A DNA stretch of 64,000 bases from an uncultured Clostridia bacterium (lineage in GTDB: Bacteria > Bacillota > Clostridia > HGM11327). The position numbers were made by a program, and so were the translations under genes. The stretch spans positions 42 to 64,041 of the forward strand of contig CAMEIT010000002.1 of assembly GCA_945918795.1 (NCBI GenBank), written 5' to 3'. The notes under the pieces are model-generated. The model did no database searches. It saw nothing but the letters and a program-made list of their open reading frames with translations, and was not told the origin of the DNA. Shown piece by piece: positions 38,601 to 63,635 of the stretch. How positions within the stretch are numbered: the first letter of the stretch is position 1; every line of letters starts with the position of its first letter.

Positions 38601-40517
38601 AACACTGTTTATATACGGCTCGCTTCCGGCGCTCCCTGCCATGAGCATTGAAAAACGTGTTTTCAGTGCCGAAGTGAGGCTTGTATCCATTCTCGGCTGA
38701 AGTATTCCGCGTCCCGATTTTACGGTAGCGGTTGCGGGGTCGAAAACGGGCCTGTTCAGAGGATGATCAGCTGTACCGACGAGAGCAAAAGCACTGCCTA
38801 TGGGCATTTTTGTGTCGGCATCAAGTGTGATGACATATTTCGAGCCTACAATGCTTTCTATTCCCGCACTCGCAAAGCAGAAATCCTTTGTGTTGCCGCT
38901 TTGAAGGAATCTGTTGAACTGAATTACAGCACCGCGCTTGCGCTCCCAGCCGAACCAGCGGTTCTGGCTTTCGTTGAATTGCCTGTCTCTGTGCATATAA
39001 AAGAATATGCGCTTGCCGTATTTGACGTTCAGTGCGTTTATTTTGCTGTTTGTGAATGCTTTTATCTGTTCGTCGTCCACATTTTTGCCGCAGTCGGAAT
39101 CGGCAAAGTCTCCGAGCAGTACGAATGATATATTATCACTTTTGTTGGAGATATAGTTGATCTCCATATTTTCCGCAAGAAGCTCTGCCTGCGCCGTATT
39201 TACGATAAGCGCCGGAGTGACAACGACTGTTGAGCATTCCTTTGGAATGCCCTTTTCAAAATCAAGCCTCAAAAAACGTGTCGGCTTTACAAGCTTTGAG
39301 GCAATGAAATTCACAAGGACAAGCGCCACGGCGCGGCACGGTATATACATTATAAATGCCGAAATGATAAACAGCACCGTGTTTATGCCGCTTTTGCCGA
39401 GCAGGCCGAGCGATATGCCGAATATCATGAATGTGACGGAATAAAGTCCGACGATATACAAAAGCCTTTTGATGAGAGATGTTCCCGAATTGTTTTCAAA
39501 CAGAATTTTGCCTATATGGCACTTTTCTTCATTTGCCTCGGCAAGTATTCTTTCGGCGCACTCGGTTTCGGAAATATGAAGCTTTTTTGCTTTCTGCTTC
39601 AGCTTTTTGCGGTAAATGTTCTTGCTTTCCGAGTCCATTTTTGCATATGTGCCGTCATCTTCCGAGCTGAACACAGCGTCTGCAATGCACACGTTGCCGA
39701 ATATCCTTTCCCAGTCGAACATATTTATCTTCATAAGGCTTGTTATGGAGTTCCTTATTGTGATGACGCAGTTGGATTCTATATGGCGTGAAAATTCGAG
39801 CACTTCGTTTGCCGACATATTTATACGCGAAAGCTCGCTGTCAAGCCAGCGCAAAACGCCTTTGCAGTCAGGCGCATTCTGTATTGCCGTAATGAATGAT
39901 GCAAGCTTTGCCGCATCGTTGACATTGACGAGGCTCTCGAGAGACTCCGCCTTTAAATCGTTTCTTTGGCATACCTCCTCGGCTGTGCGCTTTATATTGC
40001 GTGCGGAAACGAGCGCTTCATAGCGTCTGCAAGCAAGAGTCAATATGTTCCTTGCAAGCGCAAGAGAAAAAGCCGCCGAAAGCGACCATAATTCGTCCAT
40101 AGTCAGCACAAGCTCCTTTTGGTATTGCTCAAGGAACTCGGTGATGCCGTTTTCGGTCACAACTCCGCCGTTGAAATCTATATATTCCACTGCAATCGCG
40201 TATATTCTCGGAAAGCCTTTCATAATCCCGTCCGAAAGCACGGGAATATCGTGCGGTATGTTGTGTATCGATTTTTTTATGCTTTTGAGCTGCATTTTGA
40301 TAGCGTAATAATTATCGACGAACCATTCCGTCGCGGAATCCGGAATTTCCTCATCAAAGCAATGATTTTCCGCTTCTTTGTAATATTCGTCAAATACAGC
40401 CTCCTGCTGTTTGGTAATAACGAAATTACCGAATGGGGTTCTAAATAATCTGTTTGTCACACGCTTGTGCGACACAGCCAACTCTATTGCCAACGACTGT
40501 AATGTGTTTCTGTTCAA
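32628..40517 (-). CDS. Cyclic beta-1,2-glucan synthase-like protein, with N-terminal TM segments, a GT84 glycosyltransferase, a central glucanotransferase region and a C-terminal GH94 phosphorylase domain
   Basis: 2629-aa single ORF. A DxD-type GT region (VITLDADTKMP ... QPRMD) lies between TM clusters. The C-terminus carries a GH94 (cellobiose/chitobiose phosphorylase-like) domain with a GDWNDG motif. TTG start with an AAAGGAA RBS. Confidence 0.65.
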   Translation of the reverse strand: MNRNTLQSLAIELAVSHKRVTNRLFRTPFGNFVITKQQEAVFDEYYKEAENHCFDEEIPDSATEWFVDNYYAIKMQLKSIKKSIHNIPHDIPVLSDGIMKGFPRIYAIAVEYIDFNGGVVTENGITEFLEQYQKELVLTMDELWSLSAAFSLALARNILTLACRRYEALVSARNIKRTAEEVCQRNDLKAESLESLVNVNDAAKLASFITAIQNAPDCKGVLRWLDSELSRINMSANEVLEFSRHIESNCVITIRNSITSLMKINMFDWERIFGNVCIADAVFSSEDDGTYAKMDSESKNIYRKKLKQKAKKLHISETECAERILAEANEEKCHIGKILFENNSGTSLIKRLLYIVGLYSVTFMIFGISLGLLGKSGINTVLFIISAFIMYIPCRAVALVLVNFIASKLVKPTRFLRLDFEKGIPKECSTVVVTPALIVNTAQAELLAENMEINYISNKSDNISFVLLGDFADSDCGKNVDDEQIKAFTNSKINALNVKYGKRIFFYMHRDRQFNESQNRWFGWERKRGAVIQFNRFLQSGNTKDFCFASAGIESIVGSKYVITLDADTKMPIGSAFALVGTADHPLNRPVFDPATATVKSGRGILQPRMDTSLTSALKTRFSMLMAGSAGSEPYINSVSEIYQDIFGKGSFAGKGIYDSKVFCDVIDGRFPENAILSHDMIEGGYLRSGYVSDVVFVDDVPSNYISYRKRAHRWMRGDWQLLPYLMPITRNSAGKRIYNYLDGTTKYKIYENLLRTLTEPAICLLLIIGIFIKEIFLSAVILYGLQSVLPCIFELLSVLWLKITQNEHKRISFDVFTRAILNMLLAADCAFNNIDAVIRTIARLKSKKKLLEWQTAMQSESSNKGSLRSYYNVMLYSALFGVALFISALISSRLLEALIGGAFMLAPFAVYRLSRAKKEKETNLSAEAEEIIEFTAKGAWNYFKELCTEQTHYLPPDNFQEEPYKGAVMRTSPTNIGMMLCGCVAAEELGFLSDKEAVLMLSKSIATLDKLEKWNGHPYNWYDITTLKPLHPMFVSSADNGNLACCLVAVRQALCKYKDTVTDAEILIKLNESISSVQSILKNMDFSLLYDEKKDLFSVGFDVEAQKLSEYAYDMFASEARQTSFYALISGEVGIKHWQRLSRIVVKRSGRYILKSWSGSMFEYLMPALLLKTYGNTLWSNAFDGIIEEQMRYARKVKRPWGISESGYWHFDGDKYYQYKAFGIPYAAVRHTKTGEYVVAPYATALALPFAPEKAAKNLKRLRQSGMCSRYGFYEAVDMSGDSDNIIKSFMAHHEGMSLIAAANCLKKDCMINLFHSAPEVKAGEILLQEKLPSVVQPDAVPRQTIDKSPDIYAKNIEESFNGITQHPHCSMLTNGSLSMVISNSGSNIAFAGDIVLNKWKSDEIAEQYGHFIFIKDEESGFAYSVTPSPVYGKSSYNSVTFKPDSITFVGKVRGIESNLNITVCPDRNAAVFRLRIKNTHSRTKKLTVADYFEPALETLEESYSHPAYSDMFVESRYLSDNNAIVTQRTPRTDEKSKQFAAVMAVCPKSKAILPITSRYDFIGRNKTSSNPAFFSRSFDYDSLSRSTLSPCASLAVQLSLAQGESAQIDYILAYSDNYSDILNITEHYANPDNCARAFELAFEHSKISMQYKRIDSKRFRLANSILSSLYYQKAFRTKAVPCAKTLLWQFGISGDLPIICCKTSGAEKSGLKLILSAYEYISSGNVKADLVLITGDDGYHKSNYDEVYSIVSTSSCRDMIGKKGGIFILKSELNPHECAVIAQSAAVSVYGSEAQIYAQIFFEDKCIKKENIAILPKLIRKDTSKNEEILPKLVFFNGYGGFNEAKSEYTILLDNGQNTPAPWSNVIANADFGTVVTESAGGYTWYKNSRENKLTSWCNDPVSDVPAEAVYIKDDSTMQYINPARIVDGTGQYTVSYGLGYAVYRHSANKLGVTKTVFVPPSDSVKVSLLEIKNESDISKKLSVYYYAECNLSPAVSAVPDNIALTVRKASGIVYAENMNIPENGFMFAGCTGELEAVLSRKSDFFGRTGGFSHPKALDYSSWRASGERVCADCIVLKTSVEIKPHCTGTVVLLLGGAESVQDIQRLKNKYSSPQKAKKLLNDVALHYSSLTRPFKITTNDKALDMLFNNFLMYQAYVCRYHAKTSFYQCSGAYGFRDQLQDVLAFMYCDKNEAKTHILRAARQQFEEGDVRHWWHEATGYGIRTKISDDLVFLPYVSSEYAQFSGDMEIFNEQVPFVRGQEIKEGKNSSFGKAYFSDNTASLYEHCMLALKKSLRIGPHGLPLIGTGDWNDGFDKIGENGKGESVWLAFFIHYVIRGFIKVCGYFNKTDDMKFLAEACNMLERGIKQSAWDGKWYRRAYYDDGAPIGSIECDECKIDIIAQAWAAIADITPNEQIKEALESAEKYLVDEKNGIVKLFWPPFKDTDRNPGYIKAYKCGIRENGGQYTHGAIWLVTAFAMRGEAAKAMRILKMLNPVNHALTKEQAENYKVEPYVVAADVYSASTNVGMGGWTWYTGSAAWMYKTILENILGIKIKNDKIRVNPVVEKDMLPFRVEYHRENGSEKTKYIIDVICSEGNGCLLDGKECPDGEITLIDDGKTHKIVVNIN

Positions 40518-44799: not shown

Positions 44800-47700
44800 A
44801 TGAAAAAAAGATTTTTATTACTGATATTGCCTTTAACGGTATTTTTATGCTTATTTTCGATAAATTCGATGCAGAGCTCATCTGCCGGGACTGTGACGGT
44901 TCAATTTGAATTGGAATCAACGGAGTACGCAAAGCCGGGGGATGAAATTCAACTGAAAATATATGCAAATGTTTCGGGAAGCAAGCTTGCCGCCTTTGAC
45001 TTTGCAATCAATTATAATTCGTCTTTGCTCGAGCCGAAGCATGATGAGTTCGGTGAGTACGCTTATGACGATGACTTTTTCAATTCCCTTGCAAACAGTA
45101 AAAATGTAAGCAGCTATGTTGAAGAAAACGGTACGGGGGTACTGCAAGCTTTATACGCTGCAAGCAGTCTTGAGGCTACATATGTTCCCGAGGGGAAAAC
45201 GCTCTTATATACGTGCTATTTTGTCGTAAAGGCTACTGCATCAGACGGAACGGCAGCTTTCTCGTTGTCGAATCCGGCAGCAAGCTATCGTAGCTCGGGA
45301 GGAAGTCTGACAGCTGTGCCCTCAGGCGACATTACATCGACAACTGCGGCAACGACCGTAAAAAATGAGCTCTCATCGGACAATAATCTCGGCTCGTTAA
45401 CAGTAAGTACGGGCACACTTTCGCCTTCTTTTGACCCCTCTGTAACATCATATACCGTAAATGTGCCGTATGCGACATCGTCAATAACGCTTACCGCTTC
45501 GGCAAATGACGCGCTTTCCACTGTTGTGGGTGCCGGCACAAAGACGCTTGAAGTCGGTGACAATTCTTTTGATATTACGGTTACGGCGCAAAACGGAACA
45601 AAAAAGGTTTATACAGTGACGGTAAACAGAAAAGCCGCTTCAACAGACAACACTTTGCAGTCGTTGACAGTAAGCGAGGGCGCGCTTTCGCCGACATTTG
45701 ATCCGTCTGAAACCGTATATAATGTAACAGTGCCGTACGAGATAACTTCAATAACACTTGCGGCAACGGCAAACGATATACTTTCCACTGTTGCGGGTAC
45801 AGGCACAAAGAACCTTAATATCGGAAATAATTCTTTTGCAATAACGGTCACAGCCGAAAACGGTACTCAAAAGATATACACTGTAAACGTAACAAGAGAA
45901 AAGTGTACCGATAATACTCTGAAGTTGCTTACTGTAAGCGGAGGTACTTTAACTCCGTCATTCAGCCCGTCTGAAACCGTATATAATGTAACAGTGCCGT
46001 ATGAAACAGACAGCATAACTATTACTGCTGAAAAAAATCACGACACGGCAACCGTTACCGGTGCAGGCGTAAAGAGCCTTGCAGTCGGAAGCAATTCTTT
46101 TGAGATAACAGTAACAGCCCAAAACGGTGCACAAAAGAAATACACATTAAATGTTACGAGAGAAAAGTGTGCAGATAACACACTCAAATCGCTTTCGGTA
46201 AGCGGATACCAGCTGGAGCCGTCGTTTGATAAGTCAGTGCTTGAATACGTACTGAGAGTGCCGTATGAGCTTGGCAGTATAACAATATCGGCAGAGAAAA
46301 ATCACAGTACGGCAACACTGACGGGTACGGGAACAATGACACTGCCCGAGTCGGGAAGCACTGTTTTCTCTGTGAAGGTAACAGCACAGAACTCAAATGT
46401 AAAGGAGTATAAAATAACCGTCATCAAAGCGGACCCTTCAACGGATAACACACTGAAGTCGCTTACAACAAACACGGGTACATGGGATAAGGTGTTCAGC
46501 CCGTCTCAGACATCATACGTTGTTACAGTGCCGTATGCCACATCAAGCATAACGCTCTCGGCAACTGTAAATGATGTGCTTTCAACGGCAACAGGCATGG
46601 GCACAAAGACGCTTGTAGTTGGGAACAATACTTTTGAAATAACCGTTACCGCGCAAAGCGGCGATAAAAAGGTATACACCGTTACAGTCAACCGTAAGGC
46701 GGCATCAACGGATAACACGCTCAAATCGCTCACAACGAATACAGGCTCATGGGATAAGGCATTCAACCCGTCCGAAACATCATATAAAGTGACGGTGCCG
46801 TATACGACGTCGGGCATAACGATTACTGCCGCCGTAAATGACGCACTTTCAACTGTTACGGGCGCAGGAAACAAGAGCCTTAATGTAGGTGATAATTCTT
46901 TTGCAATTACGGTAAAGGCTGAAAGCGGCGCTCAAAAGCAATACACTGTAACAGTAACAAGAGAAAAGTGTACGGATAATACACTCAAGTCGCTTTCTGT
47001 AAACGGATATACATTAACTCCGTCATTCAGTCCGTCTGTATCGGAATATAAGCTTAACGTGCCTTATGTGGTAAACAGTATAACTATTTCGGCACAGGCA
47101 AATCATGCCACTGCAACGGTATCGGGCATAGGCACAAAGACGCTTGCTGTCGGAGAGAATACTTTTGCAATAACAGTGACGGCACAAAACGGCACAACAA
47201 AGGTATACACTATTATCGTAACACGCAAAGCGGCATCAACGGATAATAATCTCAAATCATTGACAATAAATACGGGTACGCTTTTGCCGTCATTCAGCCC
47301 GTCTGAAACATCATACGAGGTAACAGTGCCGTATGCCGTATCGAGCATAACGCTCAATGCCGAGGTAAACGATGCACTTTCAACACTTTCGGGCACGGGT
47401 ACGAAAGAGCTTTCAGTCGGGGAAAATGTGTTTGAAATAACGGTTACGGCTCAAAACGGAGCAAAAAAGGTTTATACCGTGACTGTAACGAGGCAAAATG
47501 CTTCAACGGATAATAACTTGAAGTCTCTCACAACGAATACGGGCGAATGGGACAACGCATTTGACCCCGAGCTGACTTCATACATTGTCAGAGTGCCTTA
47601 TGCCGTAACAAGCATAACGCTCAATGCTGTTGTAAACGATGCACTTTCAACACTTTCGGGCGCAGGCGCAAAAGAGCTTTCAGTCGGGGAAAATGTATTT

Positions 47701-50052
47701 GAAATAACGGTTACGTCAGAGGACGGCTCCGATAAAACGTATACCGTAACGGTAAACAGAGACGAACCGTCATCGGATTCGTCGCTCAAATCGATAGCGC
47801 CGTCGGCAGGCACGCTCACACCCGAGTTTGACCCTGAAATAACGGTGTATGATGTGACTGTCGGATATAAGAATGAAACGATTCAGTTTGATTGGGAAAC
47901 GAGCAATCCGGGCGCAAATGTGTTTATAACGGGGGATGATTACCTGGAAGCGGGCGATGTAACGGTATTTACAATAACCGTAATTGCAGAGGACGGCAGC
48001 AGTACATTCTACATAATAAATGTCACCCGTCTCTTGCAGTCAGACGATGCTTCACTGTCCTCGCTTGAGGTTGGCGGCACAAGGCTCAATTTTGACCCCG
48101 AAATAACAGACTATGATGTAGGTGTTCCCGAGGGAATAAAAACAGCAGATATACAATTCACGGTACGTGATGAAAACGCTTCGGCTGTACTTGAGGGAGA
48201 CGTTAATCTTGACAGTGATAAGCCAAACGTGTTCACAATAACCGTTACCGCGGAAAACGGCAACACCAAGGTATATACCATAATAATATCATACAGAGAA
48301 ATTGAATCCGACTCGTCATTGACATCTCTTACCGACAGCACGGGCACCTTGGAGTTTATTCGCGATATAAAGAATTACAGCATAAAAGTGCCGTATTCTA
48401 CCGATGTAATTGAGTTTGAGTACACACTCGGCGGAAAATATGCAACATCCGTACTTGAAGGACCGGAAATGCTTGAGGCAGGAACCGAAAACGAATACAG
48501 ACTGACTGTAATTGCGGAGGATTCTTCGTTTACGGTATATACGATTACGGTATACAGAATGCCTGCTTCCGAGGATTCGGCGCTTAAGTATTTGTCTGTC
48601 AAAGGATATGACATGACGCCTGAGTTTGACCCGGGAGTCACAATATATGATGTGTATATTCCATATTCGGCTGTAACGGCTGTTGTCGAATTTGAGCCGA
48701 ATCATCAGTTTGCAAGCGTTGAGTACAATGCTCCGGATGAGCTTGTTCCGGGTGAAATAAATATATTCACCGTAAGAGTTATTTCCGAAAGCGGAAACGC
48801 AACATTGTATACAATAAGAGTGTTTAGAGACGTTATTTCCGATGATTCATCACTTTCCGAGCTTAAACTCAAAAATGCAGTGCTTGAACCGGAATTTGCA
48901 CCTGACGAGGTAAATTATACGGCGTCTGTACCGTACAGTGTGGCGGTTGCGGAATTTGAATACAAAGCATCTCATATGGGTTCGGATGTTATTATATCGG
49001 GACCTGACGAGCTTGCAGTCGGAGAAAATATTTACAAGATAGTTGTCAAGGCGGAAACGGGCGCACAGACGATATATACGGTTACGATAACAAGGGCTGA
49101 AATGGAAAGCGATTCAACGCTCAAAACGCTTGTTCCGAGCGTGGGCGAGATCGAATTCGATCCTCTTGTTACGGAATACAATATTACACTTGACTGCTTT
49201 ACCGAATTAATAACATTCGAGTATGAGGCAAGCGGTATGTATGCGAGCGTGACATTTAACGGCAATGAAAATCTTACACAGGGAGAAACGAACGTTTTTG
49301 TCATAAGCGTAATAGCTGAGGACGGCTCTCGGACTGATTACACTGTAAATGTGTTCAGGGAGATGATTTCAAGCGACAGCTCTGCCGCAAAGATAACGGT
49401 TATGGGCAAGGAGCTTGACTTGTCATCCGGCAGGAGAGAGTTCTTGATAGATGTTTCGTACGATACCGAAAGGGCAGAGGTTGTTGCGTGGGCAAATGAC
49501 AGCAAGTCAAGCGTTGAAATAAAAAGAGAACGCGAAACACTTGCTATCGGAGAAAACGTAATCACTGTAATAATTACGGCTCAGGACAAGAGCGTTACCG
49601 AATATAAAATAAAAATATTGCGTGATGCCGGTTCAAGCAATGCGTACCTTGAAAAGCTTGAGCCTGAAAACGGAAGCTTCAACGAAGCCTTTGAGGCAAA
49701 CAAGCTCAATTACACTATGACGGTAGGCCAGGAAATAGATAAGCTTGTATTGATTATAAAGCCTGCTCATGAAAAAGCTGTTTTTGAAGTATCGGATACA
49801 AAGCTTGAGTTTGGTGAGAATGTAATTACAATAACGGTAACGTCCGAAAACGGGAATACGGTACTGTACAAGGTACGTGTTATGAGACAGAAGGATTCAT
49901 TCTGGAAAATGATTACGAGTAACACGATATTTACGGTAGGCGGATTCGGCATAACGATATTCATGTTTGTTGCGGCGGCGCTTGCAGTTATCGTGATATG
50001 CGTTGTGATACTTATAATAGTAAAGGTACGTTCGTCAAAGGATAGGAAATAA
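44800..50052 (+). CDS. Large cell-surface protein with a signal peptide, an N-terminal cohesin-like domain, ~17 tandem cadherin-like beta-sandwich repeats and a C-terminal TM anchor
   Basis: 1750 aa. Signal peptide MKKRFLLLILPLTVFLCLFS. The N-terminal domain is cohesin-like (AAFDFAINYNSSLLEP). ~90-aa units recur with ~270-bp periodicity (LSSLTVSTGTLSPSFDPSVTSYTVNVPYATSSITLTA...YTVTVNR). C-terminal TM FGITIFMFVAAALAVIVICVVILII followed by a KVRSSKDRK tail. Confidence 0.7.
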   Translation: MKKRFLLLILPLTVFLCLFSINSMQSSSAGTVTVQFELESTEYAKPGDEIQLKIYANVSGSKLAAFDFAINYNSSLLEPKHDEFGEYAYDDDFFNSLANSKNVSSYVEENGTGVLQALYAASSLEATYVPEGKTLLYTCYFVVKATASDGTAAFSLSNPAASYRSSGGSLTAVPSGDITSTTAATTVKNELSSDNNLGSLTVSTGTLSPSFDPSVTSYTVNVPYATSSITLTASANDALSTVVGAGTKTLEVGDNSFDITVTAQNGTKKVYTVTVNRKAASTDNTLQSLTVSEGALSPTFDPSETVYNVTVPYEITSITLAATANDILSTVAGTGTKNLNIGNNSFAITVTAENGTQKIYTVNVTREKCTDNTLKLLTVSGGTLTPSFSPSETVYNVTVPYETDSITITAEKNHDTATVTGAGVKSLAVGSNSFEITVTAQNGAQKKYTLNVTREKCADNTLKSLSVSGYQLEPSFDKSVLEYVLRVPYELGSITISAEKNHSTATLTGTGTMTLPESGSTVFSVKVTAQNSNVKEYKITVIKADPSTDNTLKSLTTNTGTWDKVFSPSQTSYVVTVPYATSSITLSATVNDVLSTATGMGTKTLVVGNNTFEITVTAQSGDKKVYTVTVNRKAASTDNTLKSLTTNTGSWDKAFNPSETSYKVTVPYTTSGITITAAVNDALSTVTGAGNKSLNVGDNSFAITVKAESGAQKQYTVTVTREKCTDNTLKSLSVNGYTLTPSFSPSVSEYKLNVPYVVNSITISAQANHATATVSGIGTKTLAVGENTFAITVTAQNGTTKVYTIIVTRKAASTDNNLKSLTINTGTLLPSFSPSETSYEVTVPYAVSSITLNAEVNDALSTLSGTGTKELSVGENVFEITVTAQNGAKKVYTVTVTRQNASTDNNLKSLTTNTGEWDNAFDPELTSYIVRVPYAVTSITLNAVVNDALSTLSGAGAKELSVGENVFEITVTSEDGSDKTYTVTVNRDEPSSDSSLKSIAPSAGTLTPEFDPEITVYDVTVGYKNETIQFDWETSNPGANVFITGDDYLEAGDVTVFTITVIAEDGSSTFYIINVTRLLQSDDASLSSLEVGGTRLNFDPEITDYDVGVPEGIKTADIQFTVRDENASAVLEGDVNLDSDKPNVFTITVTAENGNTKVYTIIISYREIESDSSLTSLTDSTGTLEFIRDIKNYSIKVPYSTDVIEFEYTLGGKYATSVLEGPEMLEAGTENEYRLTVIAEDSSFTVYTITVYRMPASEDSALKYLSVKGYDMTPEFDPGVTIYDVYIPYSAVTAVVEFEPNHQFASVEYNAPDELVPGEINIFTVRVISESGNATLYTIRVFRDVISDDSSLSELKLKNAVLEPEFAPDEVNYTASVPYSVAVAEFEYKASHMGSDVIISGPDELAVGENIYKIVVKAETGAQTIYTVTITRAEMESDSTLKTLVPSVGEIEFDPLVTEYNITLDCFTELITFEYEASGMYASVTFNGNENLTQGETNVFVISVIAEDGSRTDYTVNVFREMISSDSSAAKITVMGKELDLSSGRREFLIDVSYDTERAEVVAWANDSKSSVEIKRERETLAIGENVITVIITAQDKSVTEYKIKILRDAGSSNAYLEKLEPENGSFNEAFEANKLNYTMTVGQEIDKLVLIIKPAHEKAVFEVSDTKLEFGENVITITVTSENGNTVLYKVRVMRQKDSFWKMITSNTIFTVGGFGITIFMFVAAALAVIVICVVILIIVKVRSSKDRK

Positions 50053-54372: not shown

Positions 54373-54957
54373 GTGAATAAGGTCGAAAAAAGGATAAGAA
54401 AAGCAACATTTGCAAACGTTGAAGAAGAATTTTTCGAAATAGACAAAGAAAATCGTATTGCGACTATAAGACTTTCTTTCGATAAGGTGAGCGATATATT
54501 CGACGACAATTATATTACGAAAAAGCCGATATTAAACGGCGACTTTATGGAATGGATCGCCAACGCATTCAGCATAATCCCCTCGCGCTACAAAATAAAG
54601 CTCTCGGTTTCTTTTGCTGATTACGAAGGCTACTCCGAAAGACAACTGAACGAGCTCTTTTTGAAAAATATAATTTTATACGCCAAGAGCAAGCACGGCT
54701 ATCAGAAAAAACGCAACTCGCTTGCTTACGGCTTGATCGCGGTGGGAATCGCTTTTTTTATTGGTATGCTGTTTACGGAGCTTTGCTGGGAAACGGAATC
54801 GATATTCAAAACCATATTCTCTTACGTAAGCGATATAGCCACAACCGTGGCGTTCTGGGAGGCCATGACCATTTTGATAGTGGAAAGAAGGGAACAGCAC
54901 AGTTATATTGTAGCTGTTGAGAAGAGATTTTCGGGCGTTGAATTCGGGAGTAAGTAA
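54373..54957 (+). CDS. Hypothetical protein with a ~115-aa soluble N-terminal domain and 1-2 C-terminal TM helices
   Basis: GTG start 8 nt after GGAGGGA. TM segment LAYGLIAVGIAFFIGMLF. No recognisable family. Confidence 0.5.
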   Translation: MNKVEKRIRKATFANVEEEFFEIDKENRIATIRLSFDKVSDIFDDNYITKKPILNGDFMEWIANAFSIIPSRYKIKLSVSFADYEGYSERQLNELFLKNIILYAKSKHGYQKKRNSLAYGLIAVGIAFFIGMLFTELCWETESIFKTIFSYVSDIATTVAFWEAMTILIVERREQHSYIVAVEKRFSGVEFGSK

Positions 54958-54991
54958 GAAGTAACAAGATATAAATCACATATTTGAATTA

Positions 54992-55774
54992 TTATTCGTT
55001 ATTCTGCGGAATTTTTTTGTATTTCCCGTTGCCGATAAACTCTATTACACCCTTATCGCGCAAAATCTGTAATTGTTGCCTTATTTTAGGTCGAATGTTA
55101 TTATTGTCGGGATGCTTTTCGGCAAGCCGATTTTCAAAACGATACACATCCCCAAGTTCAAATTCATGAGGCTCTATTGAATTTACACAATTGAGAATAT
55201 CGAGCAGCCACCCCCTTTGGGCAACATTATCTGTTTTTAATTTATTTGCCAGCTGCATTTTGAATGTAATATTCTTTATGCTTTCAACCTGACCGTTGTT
55301 TATGATGCGTATTCTTCCTTGCTCGGGAATTTTGCCTATAAGTATATTACAGCCGACCCAGCCTGAGCGTTTTGCCGTTGAAGATAACGGATTCCTTTTT
55401 TCAATAATATCGGGAACGAAAAAATATTTCGGGACGATCCAGAAATCAAGCACCGATAATTCTTTTGCCGAATAGCTCATCAAAAAAAGATCGGGATTTT
55501 CATTGCTGTTTATGCGCTCTATCATTGAGGAATATGCCCCGTCTGTTATTTTGACGCCTAATTTGCCTGTTTTGCTTTTCAGCTCATATTGATTATTGCA
55601 ACATGGACAAAAGAAATCCGCAACAGGACTGTTGTTTTTGAAGTGCTCCAATGTTATATTGCCGCATCTTGGGCAGAACATATTCTTGCCTACCCAGGCT
55701 TCAGTCAAAACCCTTGCCTGCTGTGATTTCGAATTGTAATTATATGTTGAATTTGAATAAAGCTTAAGATCCAT
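54992..55774 (-). CDS. DpnI-like (Dam-replacing/DRP family) methyl-directed Type IIM restriction endonuclease
   Basis: Layout is a PD-(D/E)XK core D-x10-E-L-K (PVADFFCPCCNNQYELKSK) next to a Cys4 cluster (CPRCGN...CPCC), plus a C-terminal winged-helix segment IRPKIRQQLQILRDKGVIEF. This is the same arrangement as the DpnI catalytic Asp/Glu/Lys triad and its m6A-recognition wH domain. Start taken at MDLKLYSNS (ATG), which has a GGAG RBS. Confidence 0.6.
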   Translation of the reverse strand: MDLKLYSNSTYNYNSKSQQARVLTEAWVGKNMFCPRCGNITLEHFKNNSPVADFFCPCCNNQYELKSKTGKLGVKITDGAYSSMIERINSNENPDLFLMSYSAKELSVLDFWIVPKYFFVPDIIEKRNPLSSTAKRSGWVGCNILIGKIPEQGRIRIINNGQVESIKNITFKMQLANKLKTDNVAQRGWLLDILNCVNSIEPHEFELGDVYRFENRLAEKHPDNNNIRPKIRQQLQILRDKGVIEFIGNGKYKKIPQNNE

Positions 55775-55837
55775 AAGGCACAACTCCGATTCTTTGTTAC
55801 GGTAAGGCTTATTGTTTTTCAATCACCGCCGGGCATA

Positions 55838-56986
55838 TCATTCCGCCGTTTTCTTTTTCGGCGGTCTCGGACCGTAAAACTGATAATAGTCAACCTTGAT
55901 TCTTCCGTTATAGAGCTTGCGCTTTTTATCGGCTTTTCTGCCTATTTCGTTTTCAAAATTCTCATCAGCCGTAAGTACATAGAACGACCATGAAGGCAGC
56001 TCCTTCATTGCTCGCCTGAATGCGGCATATATCTTGTTTATTGCCGCTTTGTCGCCTATTCTTTCGCCGTACGGCGGATTCGTTATAATACAGCCGTACT
56101 GCTTTTTTGACGAAAGCTCGGCAAAATCACGCTGCTGAAAATGAATTGTGTCCGCAATCCCCGCTTCAATTGCATTTTTTCTTGCCGTATCAAGCACGCG
56201 CCTGTCTATATCATATCCGCATATGTCAAGCATGGGCCGAATTTCGTCTGCGCGGCTGTATTCATCCGCTTCCAAGCGGACCTTATTCCACATATTTTCG
56301 GTTGTCTGACGCCAATTTTCGCATATAAAATGTCTTTTGTGCCCCGGAGCTACGTGCATCTCGCGCAGTGCGGCTTCAATGAGTATCGTTCCCGAACCGC
56401 ACATCGGGTCAATGAGAGGTCTGTCGGGACGCCAGAAAGAAAGCGCCGCCATTGCATTTGCAAGCGTTTCCTTGAGGGGCGCTTCTCCCGCCTTTGACCT
56501 CCAGCCTCTTTTGTGCAGACCGTCGCCTGACGTATCAATAAGAAGCTCCGCAATATCGTTTCGGATAGATACCGTAACGGGATAAAGCGCACCCGTTTCC
56601 GGTATTGCTCTTACGGAATGACCGTATTTGAGCCGTTCAACGAGAGCTTTTTTTACTATCCTCTGGCAGTCGGACAAGCTGAAAAGAGCGGAGTTTACCG
56701 ATTTCGCATCAACGGTGATCGTAGCGTCGGCGGGAATGTACTTTTCCCACGGCGTACTTTTTGTGCCTTCAAAAAGCTCGTCGAATGACGTGGCTTTGAA
56801 TGTGTTTGCACATATCATTACTCTTTCTCCGGCAGATATGTTCAGGTTGAGTCTGCAAATATCCTCGTATGTTCCCTCAAGAGCTATGCGCCCGTTGTCT
56901 GCTGCCGTCTTTTCATATCCGAGCCTTTCAAGCTCCTTTGCTACTACCGATTCAAGTCCGAATGCAGTGGCTATAATCAGTTTCAT
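55838..56986 (-). CDS. THUMP-domain class I SAM-dependent RNA methyltransferase (RlmL/YpsC family, COG0116)
   Basis: N-terminal THUMP domain. The MTase has a PMCGSGTILIEAA SAM motif and an NPPYGERIG catalytic motif. AAAGGAAA RBS. Confidence 0.7.
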   Translation of the reverse strand: MKLIIATAFGLESVVAKELERLGYEKTAADNGRIALEGTYEDICRLNLNISAGERVMICANTFKATSFDELFEGTKSTPWEKYIPADATITVDAKSVNSALFSLSDCQRIVKKALVERLKYGHSVRAIPETGALYPVTVSIRNDIAELLIDTSGDGLHKRGWRSKAGEAPLKETLANAMAALSFWRPDRPLIDPMCGSGTILIEAALREMHVAPGHKRHFICENWRQTTENMWNKVRLEADEYSRADEIRPMLDICGYDIDRRVLDTARKNAIEAGIADTIHFQQRDFAELSSKKQYGCIITNPPYGERIGDKAAINKIYAAFRRAMKELPSWSFYVLTADENFENEIGRKADKKRKLYNGRIKVDYYQFYGPRPPKKKTAE

Positions 56987-60196: not shown

Positions 60197-60273
60197 GCGT
60201 TCGTAGCTCATCCGGATAGAGCGTAAGACTCCGACTCTTAAGGCGGCAGGTTCGAGTCCTGTCGGACGCACCA
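60197..60273 (+). tRNA. tRNA-Arg (CCG)
   Basis: Acceptor GCGTTCG/CGGACGC (one G-U pair), anticodon loop CTCCGAC, T-loop TTCGAGT, encoded CCA. A terminator-like hairpin AGACACAC...GTGTGTCTTTTT follows. Confidence 0.85.
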
Positions 60274-60550
60274 TCAAGACACACCCAAAAGGAGCGTATA
60301 AAACTCCGATGCGTGTGTCTTTTTCTATGCAAAACAGGGGTAAATTGCCGTTTTTGTGGTAATTTACCCTTTTTGTTGTTTCTTCGCGTATCGCCGTAGG
60401 GATTTGTTCTTCACTCGCTTTTGGAAACCGCAAACCTTTAACGATTGCACAAAAAGGATTTTTGCACGATAAGGAGCGTATGATTTTTTCCGACTTAATC
60501 AACGAAAAAAATGACCGACCGCACTCTTACGAACGCAGTCGGTCGTTTGC

Positions 60551-62179
60551 TTATAAGGTTTCTCTTACTGTTATTCCGCACTCGAACTCGATTTCGATTT
60601 CTTTGTTGGACAGTACGGTGATTTTCCGCACAAGGCTTTTGAACATCACTCGGTCGAACTCTTCAAGTATCTTCCCTGTCTGTAGCAGTTTGGTCACTTC
60701 TTCGATTCGATACGATGCGAGTTGGACTTTTCCTTGCTCGGACAGTATCTCTTCTTTTCTCATAAGCAGTTGGTCAATTTTCATTCCGACCTGCTGACTT
60801 TGATGTTCGTACTCTTTATCGGTAATCTCCCCGTTGTTCCTTATCGTCAGCAGTTCCATCATCTGCTCTTGTAGTTTTTCTATCTCGGCACTCACTTCAT
60901 TTATCGCTGTCGCACAAGAGTCCGTTATTTCGCTCACGATTGCACTTTGCAGTTTTTCGAGTATTTGTTCCTTGTCTCCTATAAGTTCGTTCAGCGCCCT
61001 TACAAACGCTTTTTCAAGGGCTTCTTCCTTGATAGGTCGACTCTTGCAGTATTCCGCGCCCGTGTTTTCGTGTCTTTTGCACACCCATATGTAGTACTTC
61101 TTATATTTGTTGTACTGTTGGTGTCTTCGGTAGGTTTCTCCGCATTCGCCGCATACTATCATTCCACTGAACGGGTATTTCCCTGAAAACTTTCCGCATC
61201 CCGTTTCGCCTGTGCTTCGTAGCGACTGTCTGTTTTGGAACTCTTGCTGTACCATCTCGAATGTTTCTTTCGATATGATAGCCGCGTGACTATCTTCCAC
61301 ATACCAACTCTGTGCGAACCCTTCGTTTTTAATTCGTCTTGGGGATAGGAAGTCAGGAAGGTATGTTTTTTGCAGGTGGCAATCGCCTTTGTACTTCTCA
61401 TTTTGCAGTATCGACTTCACCGTTGACGGATGCCATGTTTCTCTGCCCGATGGTGATGCGATACCATCTCGCTCAAGCCCTTCGGCGATTTCTTTCAGGC
61501 TTTTGCCGTCAAGGAACTCCGCATATATCCTTCTAACCGTTATTGCCTCTTCTGGCACTATTTTTAGCACCGTCCCCTTCTTGTCTCTCGTATATCCAAG
61601 GAAGTGTTTCGTGTTAAGTATTACCTTACCCTCTTGGAACTTTTTCTTGACGCTCCACCTAATATTATTGGATATGCTCCGACTCTCTTCTTCTGCAAGG
61701 CTTGCCATAATCGTAAGGACGAACTCGCTCCGCTCTTGTAGCGTATCGAGGTTTTCTTTCTCGAATATGATTCCGATACCATCTGCTTTCAGTTTTCTTG
61801 CGGTCTGTACGCAGTCGAGTGTGTTTCTTGCGAATCGGCTGACCGATTTCGTAATTATAAGGTCTATCTTTCCGTCTTCGCAGTCCTTTATCATTCGTTT
61901 GAACTGCACTCGCTTGGTATTCTTCCCGCTCAAGCCGGGGTCGGCATAAATGTCAACCATCGTCCAATCGTCATGGCTTGCTATGAGTTTGGTGAAGTGG
62001 TCAACCTGTGCCTCGTAACTGCTTTCCTGTTCTTCGTGGTCGGTCGACACTCGTGCGTATGCAGCCACTCGTATTTTTGGCTTTTGTCCCATCGCTACCG
62101 ACATAGGGTCAAGTCGTTCGGCCCTCGTCTTCGCGGGGATAATCGTAATTTTGGGTTTAGTGTTTGCACAGTTTTCCAT
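60551..62179 (-). CDS. Large serine recombinase (resolvase/invertase N-terminal domain, recombinase domain, zinc ribbon and coiled-coil)
   Basis: IRVAAYARVSTDHEEQ catalytic-Ser motif, C-terminal Cys cluster (CGECG...C) and a coiled-coil region. Start placed at MENCANT, which has an AGGAAA RBS. It overlaps the upstream recombinase stop by ~23 nt. Confidence 0.75.
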   Translation of the reverse strand: MENCANTKPKITIIPAKTRAERLDPMSVAMGQKPKIRVAAYARVSTDHEEQESSYEAQVDHFTKLIASHDDWTMVDIYADPGLSGKNTKRVQFKRMIKDCEDGKIDLIITKSVSRFARNTLDCVQTARKLKADGIGIIFEKENLDTLQERSEFVLTIMASLAEEESRSISNNIRWSVKKKFQEGKVILNTKHFLGYTRDKKGTVLKIVPEEAITVRRIYAEFLDGKSLKEIAEGLERDGIASPSGRETWHPSTVKSILQNEKYKGDCHLQKTYLPDFLSPRRIKNEGFAQSWYVEDSHAAIISKETFEMVQQEFQNRQSLRSTGETGCGKFSGKYPFSGMIVCGECGETYRRHQQYNKYKKYYIWVCKRHENTGAEYCKSRPIKEEALEKAFVRALNELIGDKEQILEKLQSAIVSEITDSCATAINEVSAEIEKLQEQMMELLTIRNNGEITDKEYEHQSQQVGMKIDQLLMRKEEILSEQGKVQLASYRIEEVTKLLQTGKILEEFDRVMFKSLVRKITVLSNKEIEIEFECGITVRETL

Positions 62180-63635
62180 TAATATTTCCTGCCCTCCCGT
62201 TTGTATATTCTTTCGTTGTCTTATATCCATTTTGGAACTCGAATGTAATCGTCCAGTCTTTTATTGTTGCTTTTACAAGGAACTCCGCCATTTGTTCCGT
62301 CATCTCATCCGATTTTCTATATTTCCCTTTTACCATATCTCTCGTTCGTAGATTCTTTATGAGAGTTTCTTGTTCTTTTATCTTTATAAGTATTTTATCG
62401 GTTTCTTCTCGGCATTTGGTTTCGGATATATAACCTTTCGCTCGTAATTGTCGCAGTTCTTGCTCGTTGGCAATAAGTTTTCGCAAGGTCTCTTCTTGCT
62501 CCGTTACGCCATTCACTTCGTTATTAGCATCAATGCTTTCATTGTAGGCTTCAATCAGCAGTCTTGTAACGACTTCGTCTTTGATGTCGTGGGATGGGCA
62601 TTCCTTTGCCCCATAAATATCCTTTTTTCGACAAGTCCACTTTATACACACATATGGTGTTCCGTGTGCCGAAGTTTTTCTTTTGAAACTCGTTCCGCAC
62701 TCTCCGCATATCAGTTTTCCTGATAGCGGATATAATGCCGTAGGTGACCCCATCGGTCGATATTTATTGCTGCGTAACACCATCATCTTCTGTACTTTTT
62801 GGTAGTCTTCACGCGACACAATCGGTTCGTGATCGTCTTGGACATAGTATTGGGGGAGTTCTCCGTAGTTGTACTTCTGCACTTTCATTGTGCTGTATGT
62901 CTTCTGCATAAGACTATCGCCGCAGTACTTTTCGTTTCGCAACATACCCATTACTGTCGATTTACTCCATCGTCCGCCATGCATTGGGGTGTATCCTTCG
63001 TTTTCGAGAATATGGCATATGCTTATAAACGAGTTGCCTTGCAGGTACAGTTCGAAGATTCTTCGTACTATGACCGCTTCTTTCTCGTTTATCACTAACT
63101 TTCCATCGACCATATCGTACCCAAGTATTCGCGTCAGTTCCACACTTCCATTTGCGAATCGTTTCCGTGCCGCCCATTTTTGGTTTTGACTCATCGATAT
63201 TAATTCTTCTTCGGCGAGACTTGCCATAACCGTGAGAATTAAACCGCACTTGGGGTCAAGGGTATGTATATTTTCGGACTCGAATATGATTTCAACTCCT
63301 ATATCTCGGAACTCTCTCACTATTTCCATTAGTTCGACTTTGTTCCGAGCGAATCTCGAAACCGACTTCGTATATATTCTGTCGATTTCACCATTTCGCA
63401 CTTTTTGAAACATCCTTTTGAGTCCATCGCGCTTTTTCATAAATGCACCGCCGATGCCCTCATCAGAGAATAATCCTATATACTCTACGGACTCGTCAAT
63501 TTCGAATCGTCTTTGCCAATAGTTAGACTGGAACGCGAAACTATCTTCTTGGGCATCGCTATCGGTACTGACTCGCACATAGGCACATACCCGTGGCTTC
63601 TCTTCTTTTTTCGTAGGTATCTCTTGAATAATCAT
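62157..63635 (-). CDS. Large serine recombinase (second paralog in the tandem pair)
   Basis: RVCAYVRVSTDSDAQ catalytic motif, recombinase domain and a CGECG zinc ribbon. AAAGGAG RBS. Confidence 0.8.
   Translation of the reverse strand: MIIQEIPTKKEEKPRVCAYVRVSTDSDAQEDSFAFQSNYWQRRFEIDESVEYIGLFSDEGIGGAFMKKRDGLKRMFQKVRNGEIDRIYTKSVSRFARNKVELMEIVREFRDIGVEIIFESENIHTLDPKCGLILTVMASLAEEELISMSQNQKWAARKRFANGSVELTRILGYDMVDGKLVINEKEAVIVRRIFELYLQGNSFISICHILENEGYTPMHGGRWSKSTVMGMLRNEKYCGDSLMQKTYSTMKVQKYNYGELPQYYVQDDHEPIVSREDYQKVQKMMVLRSNKYRPMGSPTALYPLSGKLICGECGTSFKRKTSAHGTPYVCIKWTCRKKDIYGAKECPSHDIKDEVVTRLLIEAYNESIDANNEVNGVTEQEETLRKLIANEQELRQLRAKGYISETKCREETDKILIKIKEQETLIKNLRTRDMVKGKYRKSDEMTEQMAEFLVKATIKDWTITFEFQNGYKTTKEYTNGRAGNINGKLCKH

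What the first reader, a model, noticed from the sequence alone, without database searches (positions are those of the whole stretch)
54992..55774. Orphan DpnI-like methyl-directed (Type IIM) restriction endonuclease inserted next to a THUMP RNA methyltransferase
The protein has the DpnI layout: a PD-(D/E)XK core D-x10-E-L-K (PVADFF...YELKSK) within a zinc-binding Cys4 region, and a C-terminal winged-helix segment (IRPKIRQQLQILRDKGVIEF) resembling the m6A-recognition domain. No cognate DNA methyltransferase is adjacent, as expected for a modification-dependent enzyme. This implies the host genome is not Dam (GATC) methylated and uses the enzyme against Dam-methylated incoming DNA. The adjacent NPPY-motif methyltransferase is an RNA (RlmL-type) enzyme, not a partner MTase.
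Basis: partly seen in the sequence, partly recalled or inferred. Interest (0 to 1): 0.65.

Follow-up and report, generated by a model that had tools for sequence, protein, structure and literature searches.

The report
DpnI-type nuclease in swappable restriction cassette
The gene is a genuine, intact relative of DpnI, the enzyme that cuts only methylated GATC sites, and in other strains of the same uncultured bacterium this exact chromosomal slot holds the opposite DpnII-type system, the complementary arrangement long known in pneumococcus.

Summary
Window 54992..55774 (-) encodes a 260-aa full-length DpnI homologue: Pfam DpnI 3e-74 plus DpnI_C 1e-33, PDB 4esj DpnI 2e-77, and PADLOC methyl-directed Type II REase 2e-98. 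All four catalytic residues, the four zinc cysteines, the m6A pocket and the G:C-contact residues are conserved. So are three of the four methyl-pocket residues of the winged-helix recognition helix.

The gene is not simply an orphan insertion. It lies in an 857-bp low-GC cassette (54958..55814) between a housekeeping THUMP/RlmL-like RNA methyltransferase gene and a convergent 194-aa membrane-protein gene. In 7 other metagenome contigs of the same species, with ~95-98% identical flanks and the same junctions, this slot holds a 3065-bp cassette. That cassette encodes a Dam/DpnM-class methylase, a DpnII-family endonuclease and a second methylase. 18 contigs carry the DpnI cassette.

Flank trees intermix the two alleles, and identical DpnII cassettes sit in flanks that differ by 3%. 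This indicates repeated cassette exchange. The dpnI gene is under purifying selection (14 synonymous versus 2 replacement variable codons).

It is a new example of the known DpnI/DpnII complementary cassette arrangement (S. pneumoniae; Neisseria dam/drg). Absence of Dam from the rest of the genome, and the enzyme's activity, remain untested.

The parts
54992..55774 (-). dpnI-like gene (260 aa plus stop): Type IIM, Gm6ATC-dependent restriction endonuclease homologue
   Evidence: ORF. Pfam DpnI + DpnI_C. PDB DpnI E=1.9e-77. PADLOC mREase_II E=1.8e-98. Among 15 population variants, 14 variable codons are synonymous-only and 2 change the amino acid.
54958..55814 (.). Variable 'DpnI cassette' (857 bp, 37.8% GC versus 43.6% for the window). 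In other strains a 3065-bp DpnII-type cassette replaces it.
   Evidence: blastn of the window against L016: homology stops at 55815 and resumes at 54957.
55232..55774 (-). N-terminal PD-(D/E)XK catalytic domain (residues 1-181), including E25, the Cys4 zinc site (C34, C37, C56, C59) and the m6A/G:C readout loop (R127, L130, R136, W139, G141)
   Evidence: Pfam PF06044 covers residues 1-181. The residues are invariant in the 10-sequence alignment that includes DpnI. Their roles are taken from PMC3424567 and PMC4117772.
55577..55618 (-). Catalytic motif D53-x10-E64-L-K66 (DFFCPCCNNQYELK), which contains the second CxxC pair
   Evidence: Translation. It aligns with DpnI D53/E64/K66. Mutagenesis of these residues in DpnI is reported in PMC3424567.
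55013..55219 (-). C-terminal winged-helix domain (residues 186-254)
   Evidence: Pfam PF17726 E=1.3e-33. Translation.
55076..55087 (-). Start of the recognition helix, K230-I-R232-Q233 (= DpnI K229, R231, Q232). The preceding residue is Pro229 where DpnI has E228.
   Evidence: Translation. K230, R232 and Q233 are invariant, while the E228 position varies in the family (E, P or A). Roles are from PMC3424567.
55784..55787 (-). GGAG ribosome-binding site, 9 nt upstream of the ATG
   Evidence: Read directly from the sequence.
55838..56986 (-). Left flank: housekeeping THUMP/RlmL-like RNA methyltransferase gene. It is not part of the cassette.
   Evidence: Pfam RlmL_1st + THUMP + UPF0020. NCBIfam RlmK/RlmL hit at 284 bits, below the equivalog cut-off. 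The protein is 97-100% identical in strains of both alleles.
54373..54957 (+). Right flank: convergent 194-aa gene of unknown function with hydrophobic segments. Its stop codon abuts the cassette junction.
   Evidence: ORF. No hit in Pfam, NCBIfam or PADLOC. Present in both alleles. 20 of 28 variable sites fall at third codon positions.

Best explanation
The gene encodes an active DpnI-type (Type IIM) restriction endonuclease. It is a monomer whose PD-(D/E)XK/zinc catalytic domain and C-terminal winged-helix domain each read fully methylated Gm6ATC, and it cuts such DNA. It needs no partner methylase because the host's own GATC sites are unmethylated.

In this species it is one of two interchangeable cassettes at a fixed site, between the 3' ends of the THUMP RNA-methyltransferase gene and a 194-aa gene. 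The alternative cassette encodes a Dam/DpnM-class GATC methylase, a DpnII-family endonuclease that cuts unmethylated GATC, and a second methylase. A strain therefore has either unmethylated DNA and cuts methylated DNA, or methylated DNA and cuts unmethylated DNA.

Phage or other DNA that leaves a strain of one type is restricted in the other type. The cassettes move between strains by homologous recombination in the shared flanks.

Shown here: family membership, conservation of functional residues, purifying selection, the allelic cassettes with sharp junctions, and their mixing across strain backgrounds.

Inferred, not shown: GATC specificity, activity, absence of Dam elsewhere in this genome, the anti-phage benefit and the transfer route.
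For: Family membership and functional residues:
- Pfam DpnI 3e-74 and DpnI_C 1e-33, PDB R.DpnI 1.9e-77, PADLOC mREase_II 1.8e-98.
- DpnI residues E25, D53, E64, K66, the four Cys, Q18, N48, R126, L129, R135, W138, G140, K229, R231 and Q232 are all conserved in the window protein. They are invariant across 10 homologues. Their roles come from PMC3424567 and PMC4117772.

Selection:
- 16 variable codons among 15 variants: 14 synonymous, 2 conservative replacements (I40T, K253R).

Allelic cassettes:
- The identical THUMP protein is followed by dpnI in some contigs and by D12 MTase + DpnII + N6_N4 MTase in others.
- Breakpoints lie at 55815 and 54957, with flanks ~98% identical.
- The D12 MTase hits DpnM (2dpm) at 1e-53 and passes the TIGR00571 dam cut-off.
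- The endonuclease hits PF04556 DpnII at 6e-112.
- The tally is 18 DpnI versus 7 DpnII contigs from different samples.

Cassette exchange:
- The window (DpnI) differs from L016 (DpnII) at 2/1149 sites in the THUMP gene, but from other DpnI strains at 8-16/1149.
- L020 and L036 differ at 36/1149 in the THUMP gene yet have identical D12 genes (0/963).
- The two alleles are intermixed in the flank trees.

Foreign origin and absence of Dam in the window:
- Both cassettes have low GC: 37.8% and 32.2% versus 43.6% for the window.
- No Dam-like gene occurs in the 64 kb.

The same logic is established in S. pneumoniae (PMC3573125, PMC3812788, PMC4471560) and in Neisseria dam/drg (PMC4269198, PMC516771).
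Against: - No biochemical or methylome data exist, so the specificity for Gm6ATC is inferred from conserved contact residues and from allelism with a GATC system.
- One of the four winged-helix methyl-pocket residues differs (DpnI E228 is Pro229 here). This position is variable across the family.
- Only 64 kb of the genome could be inspected, so a Dam elsewhere cannot be excluded.
- No promoter-like site was found between the THUMP gene and dpnI, so expression is presumed to come from read-through of the upstream genes.
- At least one disrupted dpnI allele exists in the population, so the gene is dispensable in some strains.
Confidence: 0.8

Rival explanations
1. It is a stand-alone orphan insertion: a methyl-directed nuclease that landed once next to the THUMP gene and has no relation to any other R-M system of the species.
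For: Within the window the gene is solitary. None of 10 DpnI homologues in other species has a Dam-class gene within about 10 kb. The cassette has low GC.
Against: The same site, with the same junctions, holds a complete DpnII-type system in 7 other contigs of the same species. The alleles are mixed across backgrounds.
Confidence: 0.07
2. It is a DpnI-family protein with a different or non-defence role. For example, it could have altered sequence specificity, or a physiological role such as those reported for Neisseria Drg (viability, biofilm), with restriction being secondary.
For: Neisseria drg mutants show viability and biofilm phenotypes (PMC4269198). The winged-helix pocket residue E228 is replaced by Pro. 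DpnI itself has relaxed 'star' activity on other m6A contexts (PMC3424567).
Against: All residues that contact the G:C pairs and the methyl groups in the catalytic domain are conserved. The allelic partner cassette is a GATC (Dam/DpnII) system. Neisseria Drg itself has GmeATC specificity (PMC4269198).
Confidence: 0.08
3. It is an inactive or decaying remnant, left after the lineage lost or switched its GATC system.
For: A split allele (71-aa and 177-aa products on the same contigs) exists in a few samples. No dedicated promoter was predicted.
Against: The ORF is intact in the window and in at least 15 population variants. Substitutions are 14 synonymous to 2 replacement, and 13 of 16 variable sites fall at third codon positions. 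Every catalytic and zinc residue is intact.
Confidence: 0.04

Closest known systems
R.DpnI (dpnC) of Streptococcus pneumoniae, Type IIM, PDB 4esj/4kyw; Pfam PF06044 + PF17726
   Same: The two proteins align over their full length at 47% identity. The two-domain layout is the same. Shared residues are catalytic E25/D53/E64/K66, the Cys4 zinc site, the methyl pocket L129/R135/W138/G140, the G:C contacts N48/R126/R135, and winged-helix K229/R231/Q232. Neither has an adjacent cognate methylase.
   Different: The winged-helix residue E228 is Pro here. The cassette holds the nuclease gene alone, with no dpnD-like second gene. The host is an uncultured bacterium known only from metagenomes, not a streptococcus. 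Activity is untested.
The complementary DpnI/DpnII(/DpnIII) cassette locus of S. pneumoniae, S. mitis and S. pseudopneumoniae (Lacks et al. 1986, cited in PMC3812788; PMC3573125; PMC4471560)
   Same: Alternative restriction cassettes occupy one chromosomal site between conserved housekeeping flanks. One cassette is DpnI-type. The other has a Dam-class MTase, a DpnII-family REase and a second MTase. Both alleles circulate in the population and are mixed across strain backgrounds.
   Different: The flanking genes differ: THUMP MTase and a 194-aa ORF here, versus galactose/lactose and xanthine genes in pneumococcus. The gene order here is M-R-M rather than dpnM-dpnA-dpnB. The second MTase has motif I before motif IV, the reverse of the order in the beta-class enzymes it matches (DpnA-named and related PDB chains). 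There is no dpnD. In this sample DpnI is the majority allele (18:7), whereas in pneumococci the two are roughly equal (PMC3573125). No third allele was seen.
Neisseria dam-replacing gene drg/drp (NmeBII-type, GmeATC-specific) at the leuS/dam locus (PMC4269198, PMC516771)
   Same: A DpnI-family nuclease gene of lower GC than the genome occupies the place where other strains carry dam. Strains are either Dam+ or Drg+. N. gonorrhoeae Drg is 43% identical to the window protein.
   Different: In Neisseria the alternative allele is a solitary dam, not a full DpnII-type R-M system. The taxon and the flanks also differ.
MboI / LlaDCHI / DpnII-type GATC R-M systems with two methylases
   Same: The alternative cassette has a Dam-class MTase (TIGR00571, DpnM 1e-53), a PF04556 DpnII-family REase and a second MTase. 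From my own recollection, not tested here, the M-R-M order matches the MboI arrangement.
   Different: This applies to the alternative allele, not to the window itself. The specificity of the second MTase is unknown.

Membership tests
DpnI family (Type IIM, PF06044/PF17726) | Significant full-length sequence similarity to R.DpnI, covering both domains | tested here: met
   PF06044 3.1e-74 (residues 1-181) and PF17726 1.3e-33 (186-254), both above the gathering cut-offs. PDB 4esj 1.9e-77 over residues 10-255. PADLOC mREase_II 1.8e-98.
DpnI family (Type IIM, PF06044/PF17726) | PD-(D/E)XK catalytic residues E25, D53, E64, K66 | tested here: met
   All four are present at the same numbering and are invariant in alignment A1. 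Their roles are from PMC3424567.
DpnI family (Type IIM, PF06044/PF17726) | Structural Zn site formed by two CxxC pairs that flank the 'D' of the motif | tested here: met
   C34, C37, C56 and C59 are invariant. The description of the site is in PMC3424567.
DpnI family (Type IIM, PF06044/PF17726) | Catalytic-domain methyl-binding cleft (L129, R135, W138, G140) and G:C contacts (N48, R126) | tested here: met
   The window protein has L130, R136, W139, G141, N48 and R127, all invariant in A1. Their roles are from PMC4117772.
DpnI family (Type IIM, PF06044/PF17726) | Winged-helix recognition-helix residues E228, K229, R231, Q232 | tested here: inconclusive
   K230, R232 and Q233 are conserved. E228 is replaced by Pro229. 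This column is E, P or A among the homologues, so it is not a family invariant.
DpnI family (Type IIM, PF06044/PF17726) | Cleavage requires N6-methyladenine in GATC | not testable with these tools
   This needs in vitro digestion of Dam+ versus Dam- DNA.
DpnI family (Type IIM, PF06044/PF17726) | Host lacks GATC (Dam) methylation | tested here: inconclusive
   No Dam-like gene occurs in the 64-kb window, and the Dam-class gene is allelic to dpnI. The rest of the genome and the methylome are not available.
Complementary DpnI/DpnII cassette system (pneumococcal type) | Alternative cassettes at one chromosomal site, bounded by homologous flanks | tested here: met
   Flanks are 95-98.6% identical up to 55815 and from 54957. 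The cassettes are 857 bp and 3064-3065 bp. Junctions are identical across contigs.
Complementary DpnI/DpnII cassette system (pneumococcal type) | The alternative cassette encodes a Dam-class MTase, a DpnII-family REase and a second MTase | tested here: met
   PF02086 1.2e-61, TIGR00571 at 289 bits (cut-off 115) and DpnM 2dpm 1.2e-53. PF04556 6.1e-112. PF01555 1.5e-23 and PADLOC MTase_II 1.5e-151.
Complementary DpnI/DpnII cassette system (pneumococcal type) | Both alleles coexist in the species and move between backgrounds | tested here: met
   18 DpnI and 7 DpnII contigs from different samples, including the same cohort. Flank trees are intermixed. Identical D12 genes sit in THUMP flanks that differ at 36/1149 sites.
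Complementary DpnI/DpnII cassette system (pneumococcal type) | The DpnI cassette carries a second gene (dpnD) | tested here: not met
   The 857-bp cassette contains only the 783-bp dpnI gene.
Complementary DpnI/DpnII cassette system (pneumococcal type) | The second methylase is a DpnA-type (beta-class, ssDNA-active) enzyme, with gene order dpnM-dpnA-dpnB | tested here: not met
   The order is MTase-REase-MTase. The third protein has motif I (residues 49-96) before motif IV (107-219), which is permuted relative to beta-class 2zie and PF01555. It is only weakly similar to PDB 'DpnA' chains (about 3e-4). ssDNA activity is not testable.
Complementary DpnI/DpnII cassette system (pneumococcal type) | Exchange by natural transformation, and protection of mixed populations from phage | not testable with these tools
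   This requires culture or experimental work.

The most novel reading that the evidence does not exclude
Complementary DpnI-type and DpnII-type cassettes may be held as a balanced polymorphism in an uncultured, probably gut-dwelling, bacterium unrelated to streptococci or Neisseria. Whole cassettes would be passed repeatedly between strains that differ by about 3% in the flanks. That would make methylated-versus-unmethylated GATC 'blood groups' a general, convergently assembled population-level anti-phage strategy. It would also imply efficient homologous exchange, possibly natural transformation, in this lineage. The permuted third methylase might then serve the protective role that DpnA has in pneumococcus.
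Probability: 0.35. Interest if true: 0.5.

Novelty: new member of a known kind. Interest (0 to 1): 0.35.

Why it matters
The gene itself is an ordinary, well-conserved member of a structurally and biochemically characterised family. The modest added value lies in the population context. Metagenome contigs show the textbook pneumococcal DpnI/DpnII 'intercellular cassette' arrangement recreated, with different flanks and different cassette contents, in an uncultured bacterium. There is direct sequence evidence for cassette exchange between strains.

If confirmed, strains of one species in the same cohort would differ in whether their GATC sites are methylated. This matters for three things: methylation-based metagenome binning, predicting phage host range, and choosing DNA preparation (Dam+ or Dam-) for any attempt to transform such organisms.

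Tried and rejected
1. Exact-product look-ups of the 194-aa flank gene (two forms) and of IMPDH found nothing on record. The THUMP protein and cluster members were used instead.
2. The organism could not be named.
   - A full-text search for the sample and assembly accessions found no paper.
It returned only hits of 61% identity or less in scattered taxa: Alistipes, Eubacteriaceae, Lachnospiraceae, Bacteroides, Sulfurovum and Gracilibacteria.
3. The metagenome-contig scan with the THUMP protein found only relatives of 76% identity or less, without the cassette or the synteny. An ancestral 'empty site' could therefore not be defined.
4. tblastn against the phage and plasmid collections found no full-length homologues on mobile elements. 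The hits were wH-domain-only matches, plus Neisseria chromosomes filed as plasmids. A phage or plasmid origin is not supported.
5. No promoter-like site lies between the THUMP gene and dpnI, and no terminator lies after it. These are consensus scans only.
6. My first synonymous/replacement count for the 194-aa gene was made on the wrong strand and is void. The codon-position count shows normal purifying selection.
7. Structure prediction and the large homology searches were not run. The sequence match to the solved DpnI structure is already unambiguous.
8. No repeats, integrase or transposase lie at the cassette borders. A site-specific or transpositional mechanism was therefore rejected in favour of homologous exchange through the flanks.

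Full report

Yes. A minus-strand ORF spans 54992..55822.

The ATG is the better start for three reasons. A GGAG lies 9 nt upstream. All homologues align from residue 1. The upstream TTG lies in the conserved flank, outside the variable cassette.

D53-x10-E64-L-K66 (DFFCPCCNNQYELK) is at 55577..55618. The two CxxC pairs are C34/C37 and C56/C59. The C-terminal segment IRPKIRQQLQILRDKGVIEF is also there.

**2. What is the protein?**

It is a full-length DpnI homologue, supported by four independent searches:

- Pfam PF06044 (DpnI), E=3.1e-74, residues 1-181.
- Pfam PF17726 (DpnI_C), E=1.3e-33, residues 186-254.
- phmmer against PDB: R.DpnI (4esj/4kyw), E=1.9e-77 over residues 10-255.
- PADLOC 'Type II methyl-directed restriction enzyme', E=1.8e-98, full length.

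Identity to DpnI is 47%.

The DpnI structure papers define the functional residues:

- PMC3424567: catalytic E25, D53, E64 and K66; a Zn ion bound by four Cys; winged-helix methyl pockets formed by E228, K229, R231 and Q232.
- PMC4117772: methyl cleft L129, R135 and W138, with G140 packing against W138; G:C contacts by N48, R126 and R135; also S17 and Q18.

I mapped each of these onto the window protein. The numbering is the same up to about residue 103 and is shifted by +1 after that. All are conserved except E228, which is Pro229 here.

In a 10-sequence alignment with DpnI and eight homologues from other species, these residues are invariant. The exceptions are S17, which varies in some homologues but is retained in the window protein, and the E228 column, which is E, P or A. 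The Pro is therefore normal family variation.

**3. Is the gene functional?**

Among 15 population variants of the gene recovered from metagenome contigs, 16 codons vary. 14 of them vary synonymously and 2 change the amino acid (I40T, K253R). 13 of the 16 variable sites fall at third codon positions. This is clear purifying selection.

A split version (products of 71 aa and 177 aa on the same contigs) exists in a few samples. Null alleles therefore occur, but they are rare.

**4. Surroundings.**

The 64-kb window is ordinary chromosome. It carries glycogen genes, pyruvate kinase, IMPDH, glycoside hydrolases and a 2629-aa GH94 protein.

The upstream neighbour, 55838..56986 (-), has RlmL_1st + THUMP + UPF0020 domains. 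Its best NCBIfam match is RlmK/RlmL, below the equivalog cut-off. Its protein is 97-100% identical in strains of either allele. Homologues in other species have no Dpn gene beside them.

No Dam-like gene occurs anywhere in the window.

**5. The key result: the site is a swap site.**

I looked up contigs that encode exactly the same THUMP protein, a close variant of it, and the alternative endonuclease. This recovered the locus from about 25 independent metagenome assemblies.

- In 18 contigs the THUMP gene is followed by dpnI, as in the window. L026 and L032 were confirmed to be of this type.
- In 7 contigs (L016=L033, L017, L020, L034-L037) the same position holds three other genes.

The three genes of the alternative cassette are:

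- A D12/Dam-class methylase: PF02086 1.2e-61; TIGR00571 'dam' at 289 bits against a cut-off of 115; S. pneumoniae DpnM (2dpm) 1.2e-53.
- A DpnII-family endonuclease: PF04556 6.1e-112.
- A second N6/N4-type DNA methylase: PF01555 1.5e-23; PADLOC MTase_II 1.5e-151.

blastn places the breakpoints at window 55815, which is 22-23 nt after the THUMP stop codon, and at 54957, the last base of the stop codon of the convergent 194-aa gene. The flanks are 95-98.6% identical. The junction sequences are the same in all contigs of each type.

The DpnI cassette is 857 bp with 37.8% GC. The DpnII-type cassette is 3064-3065 bp with 32.2% GC. The window as a whole has 43.6% GC. There are no border repeats and no recombinase at the site.

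**6. Evidence for exchange between strains.**

In neighbour-joining trees of either flank, the two alleles are interspersed.

- The window (DpnI) differs from L016 (DpnII) at only 2 of 1149 sites in the adjacent THUMP gene. It differs from other DpnI strains at 8-16 sites.
- L020 and L036 differ at 36 of 1149 sites in the THUMP gene yet carry identical Dam-class genes (0/963).

The DpnII-type cassette is much less diverse (pi 0.0005-0.007) than the flanks of the strains carrying it (0.018-0.065). The dpnI gene (0.0076) is about as diverse as its flanks. With small samples, this suggests that DpnI is the long-resident allele and that the DpnII-type cassette has spread recently across backgrounds.

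Both alleles occur in the same sample cohort.

**7. Mechanism.**

By homology, the enzyme should act as DpnI does. It would be a monomer that recognises fully methylated Gm6ATC with both domains and cuts it. It is harmless to a host with unmethylated GATC.

In the population, the two cassettes define two strain types: unmethylated DNA that cuts methylated DNA, and methylated DNA that cuts unmethylated DNA. Phage or DNA emerging from one type is restricted by the other. This is the explanation established for pneumococcus (PMC3812788, PMC3573125). Cassette replacement through the homologous flanks fits the sharp junctions.

The GATC specificity, the activity, the absence of Dam elsewhere and the phage benefit are all inferences.

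GATC is under-represented in the window: 71 observed against 153 expected from a Markov model. This would fit a lineage long exposed to GATC-directed restriction. However, CTAG, GGCC and CCGG are also depleted, so I give this little weight.

**8. Comparison with known systems.**

This is the known DpnI family and the known complementary-cassette logic. The known cases are S. pneumoniae, S. mitis and S. pseudopneumoniae (PMC4471560) and Neisseria dam versus drg, where the drg locus also has lower GC than the genome (PMC4269198, PMC516771).

The differences here are:

- The flanking genes are different.
- The DpnI cassette has a single gene, with no dpnD.
- The gene order is M-R-M rather than dpnM-dpnA-dpnB.
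- The second methylase has motif I before motif IV, so it is permuted relative to the beta-class enzymes it resembles.
- DpnI is the majority allele, 18 to 7.
- The host is uncultured and known only from metagenomes.

Full-length homologues are absent from the phage and true plasmid collections.

A related fossil exists in another species. In a Clostridia MAG (L010), a dpnI homologue is followed by a 107-aa fragment of the same kind of third methylase. The fragment is 85% identical over residues 31-96. Its AdoMet motif is damaged (FAGGGTT has become FAGGETT) and it has no motif IV. This suggests that a DpnII-type cassette was overwritten by dpnI there too.

**9. Verdict.**

The family assignment is correct. 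The 'orphan insertion' reading is incomplete, because the gene is one allele of a DpnI/DpnII-type complementary cassette locus.

It is a new member of a known kind and of moderate-to-low interest. The population-level cassette exchange in a non-streptococcal, uncultured bacterium is the only part worth following up.

Noticed in passing
window 60197..63635: A tRNA-Arg(CCG) gene (60197..60273, +) is followed by two tandem large serine recombinase genes (60551..62230 and 62157..63635, both -; Resolvase + Recombinase + Zn_ribbon_recom). Other strains have an acetyltransferase gene beside the AraC-family gene at this position. This looks like the edge of a strain-specific integrated element next to the tRNA-Arg gene.
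   Followed up: partly
whole window: Several 4-base palindromes are strongly depleted relative to a Markov expectation: CTAG 1 versus 21, GGCC 25 versus 178, CCGG 146 versus 316, GATC 71 versus 153. This may be a footprint of past or present restriction systems (HaeIII-, HpaII/MspI- and DpnII-like), but that was not tested.
   Followed up: no
L010 7589..8725 (Clostridia MAG CANEHP010000039.1): A dpnI homologue (54% identity) is followed directly by a 107-aa ORF. That ORF is a fragment (residues 31-121) of the third methylase of the DpnII-type cassette. Its motif I is mutated (FAGGETT) and it has no motif IV. It is apparently a fossil of a DpnII-type cassette that dpnI replaced.
   Followed up: partly
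L016 6680..7432: The second methylase of the alternative cassette has motif I (FAGGGTT, near residue 63) before motif IV (an unusual HPPY, near residue 133). It is therefore circularly permuted relative to the beta-class N6/N4 methylases it matches (PF01555, PDB 2zie). It does match a full-length PADLOC/REBASE-type MTase_II model at 1.5e-151.
   Followed up: partly
proteins P0010 and P0006 (same contigs, up to 14.5 kb): In one to three samples the dpnI gene is split into a 71-aa N-terminal product and a 177-aa product that starts at Met84. This is a naturally disrupted (null) allele.
   Followed up: partly
L011 290..1039 and L012 (Candidatus Gracilibacteria MAGs): The dpnI homologue in L011 has two in-frame stop codons under genetic code 11. 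This probably reflects the alternative code of this phylum (UGA read as Gly). I did not check which stop codon is involved, and I did not check L012 separately. The family therefore probably reaches the candidate phyla radiation.
   Followed up: no
window 54373..54957 (+): This 194-aa gene has hydrophobic C-terminal segments and no match in Pfam, NCBIfam or PADLOC. It is conserved next to the cassette in both alleles and is under purifying selection (20 of 28 variable sites at third codon positions). It is frameshifted in one strain (L019).
   Followed up: partly
window 32628..40517 (-) and 44800..50052 (+): There are two giant genes. One encodes a 2629-aa protein with glucoamylase and GH94 supersandwich and catalytic domains, which resembles a cyclic beta-1,2-glucan synthase or phosphorylase. 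The other encodes a 1750-aa protein with 13 cadherin-like repeats. A precomputed weak cohesin hit is on record for the latter in another strain.
   Followed up: no
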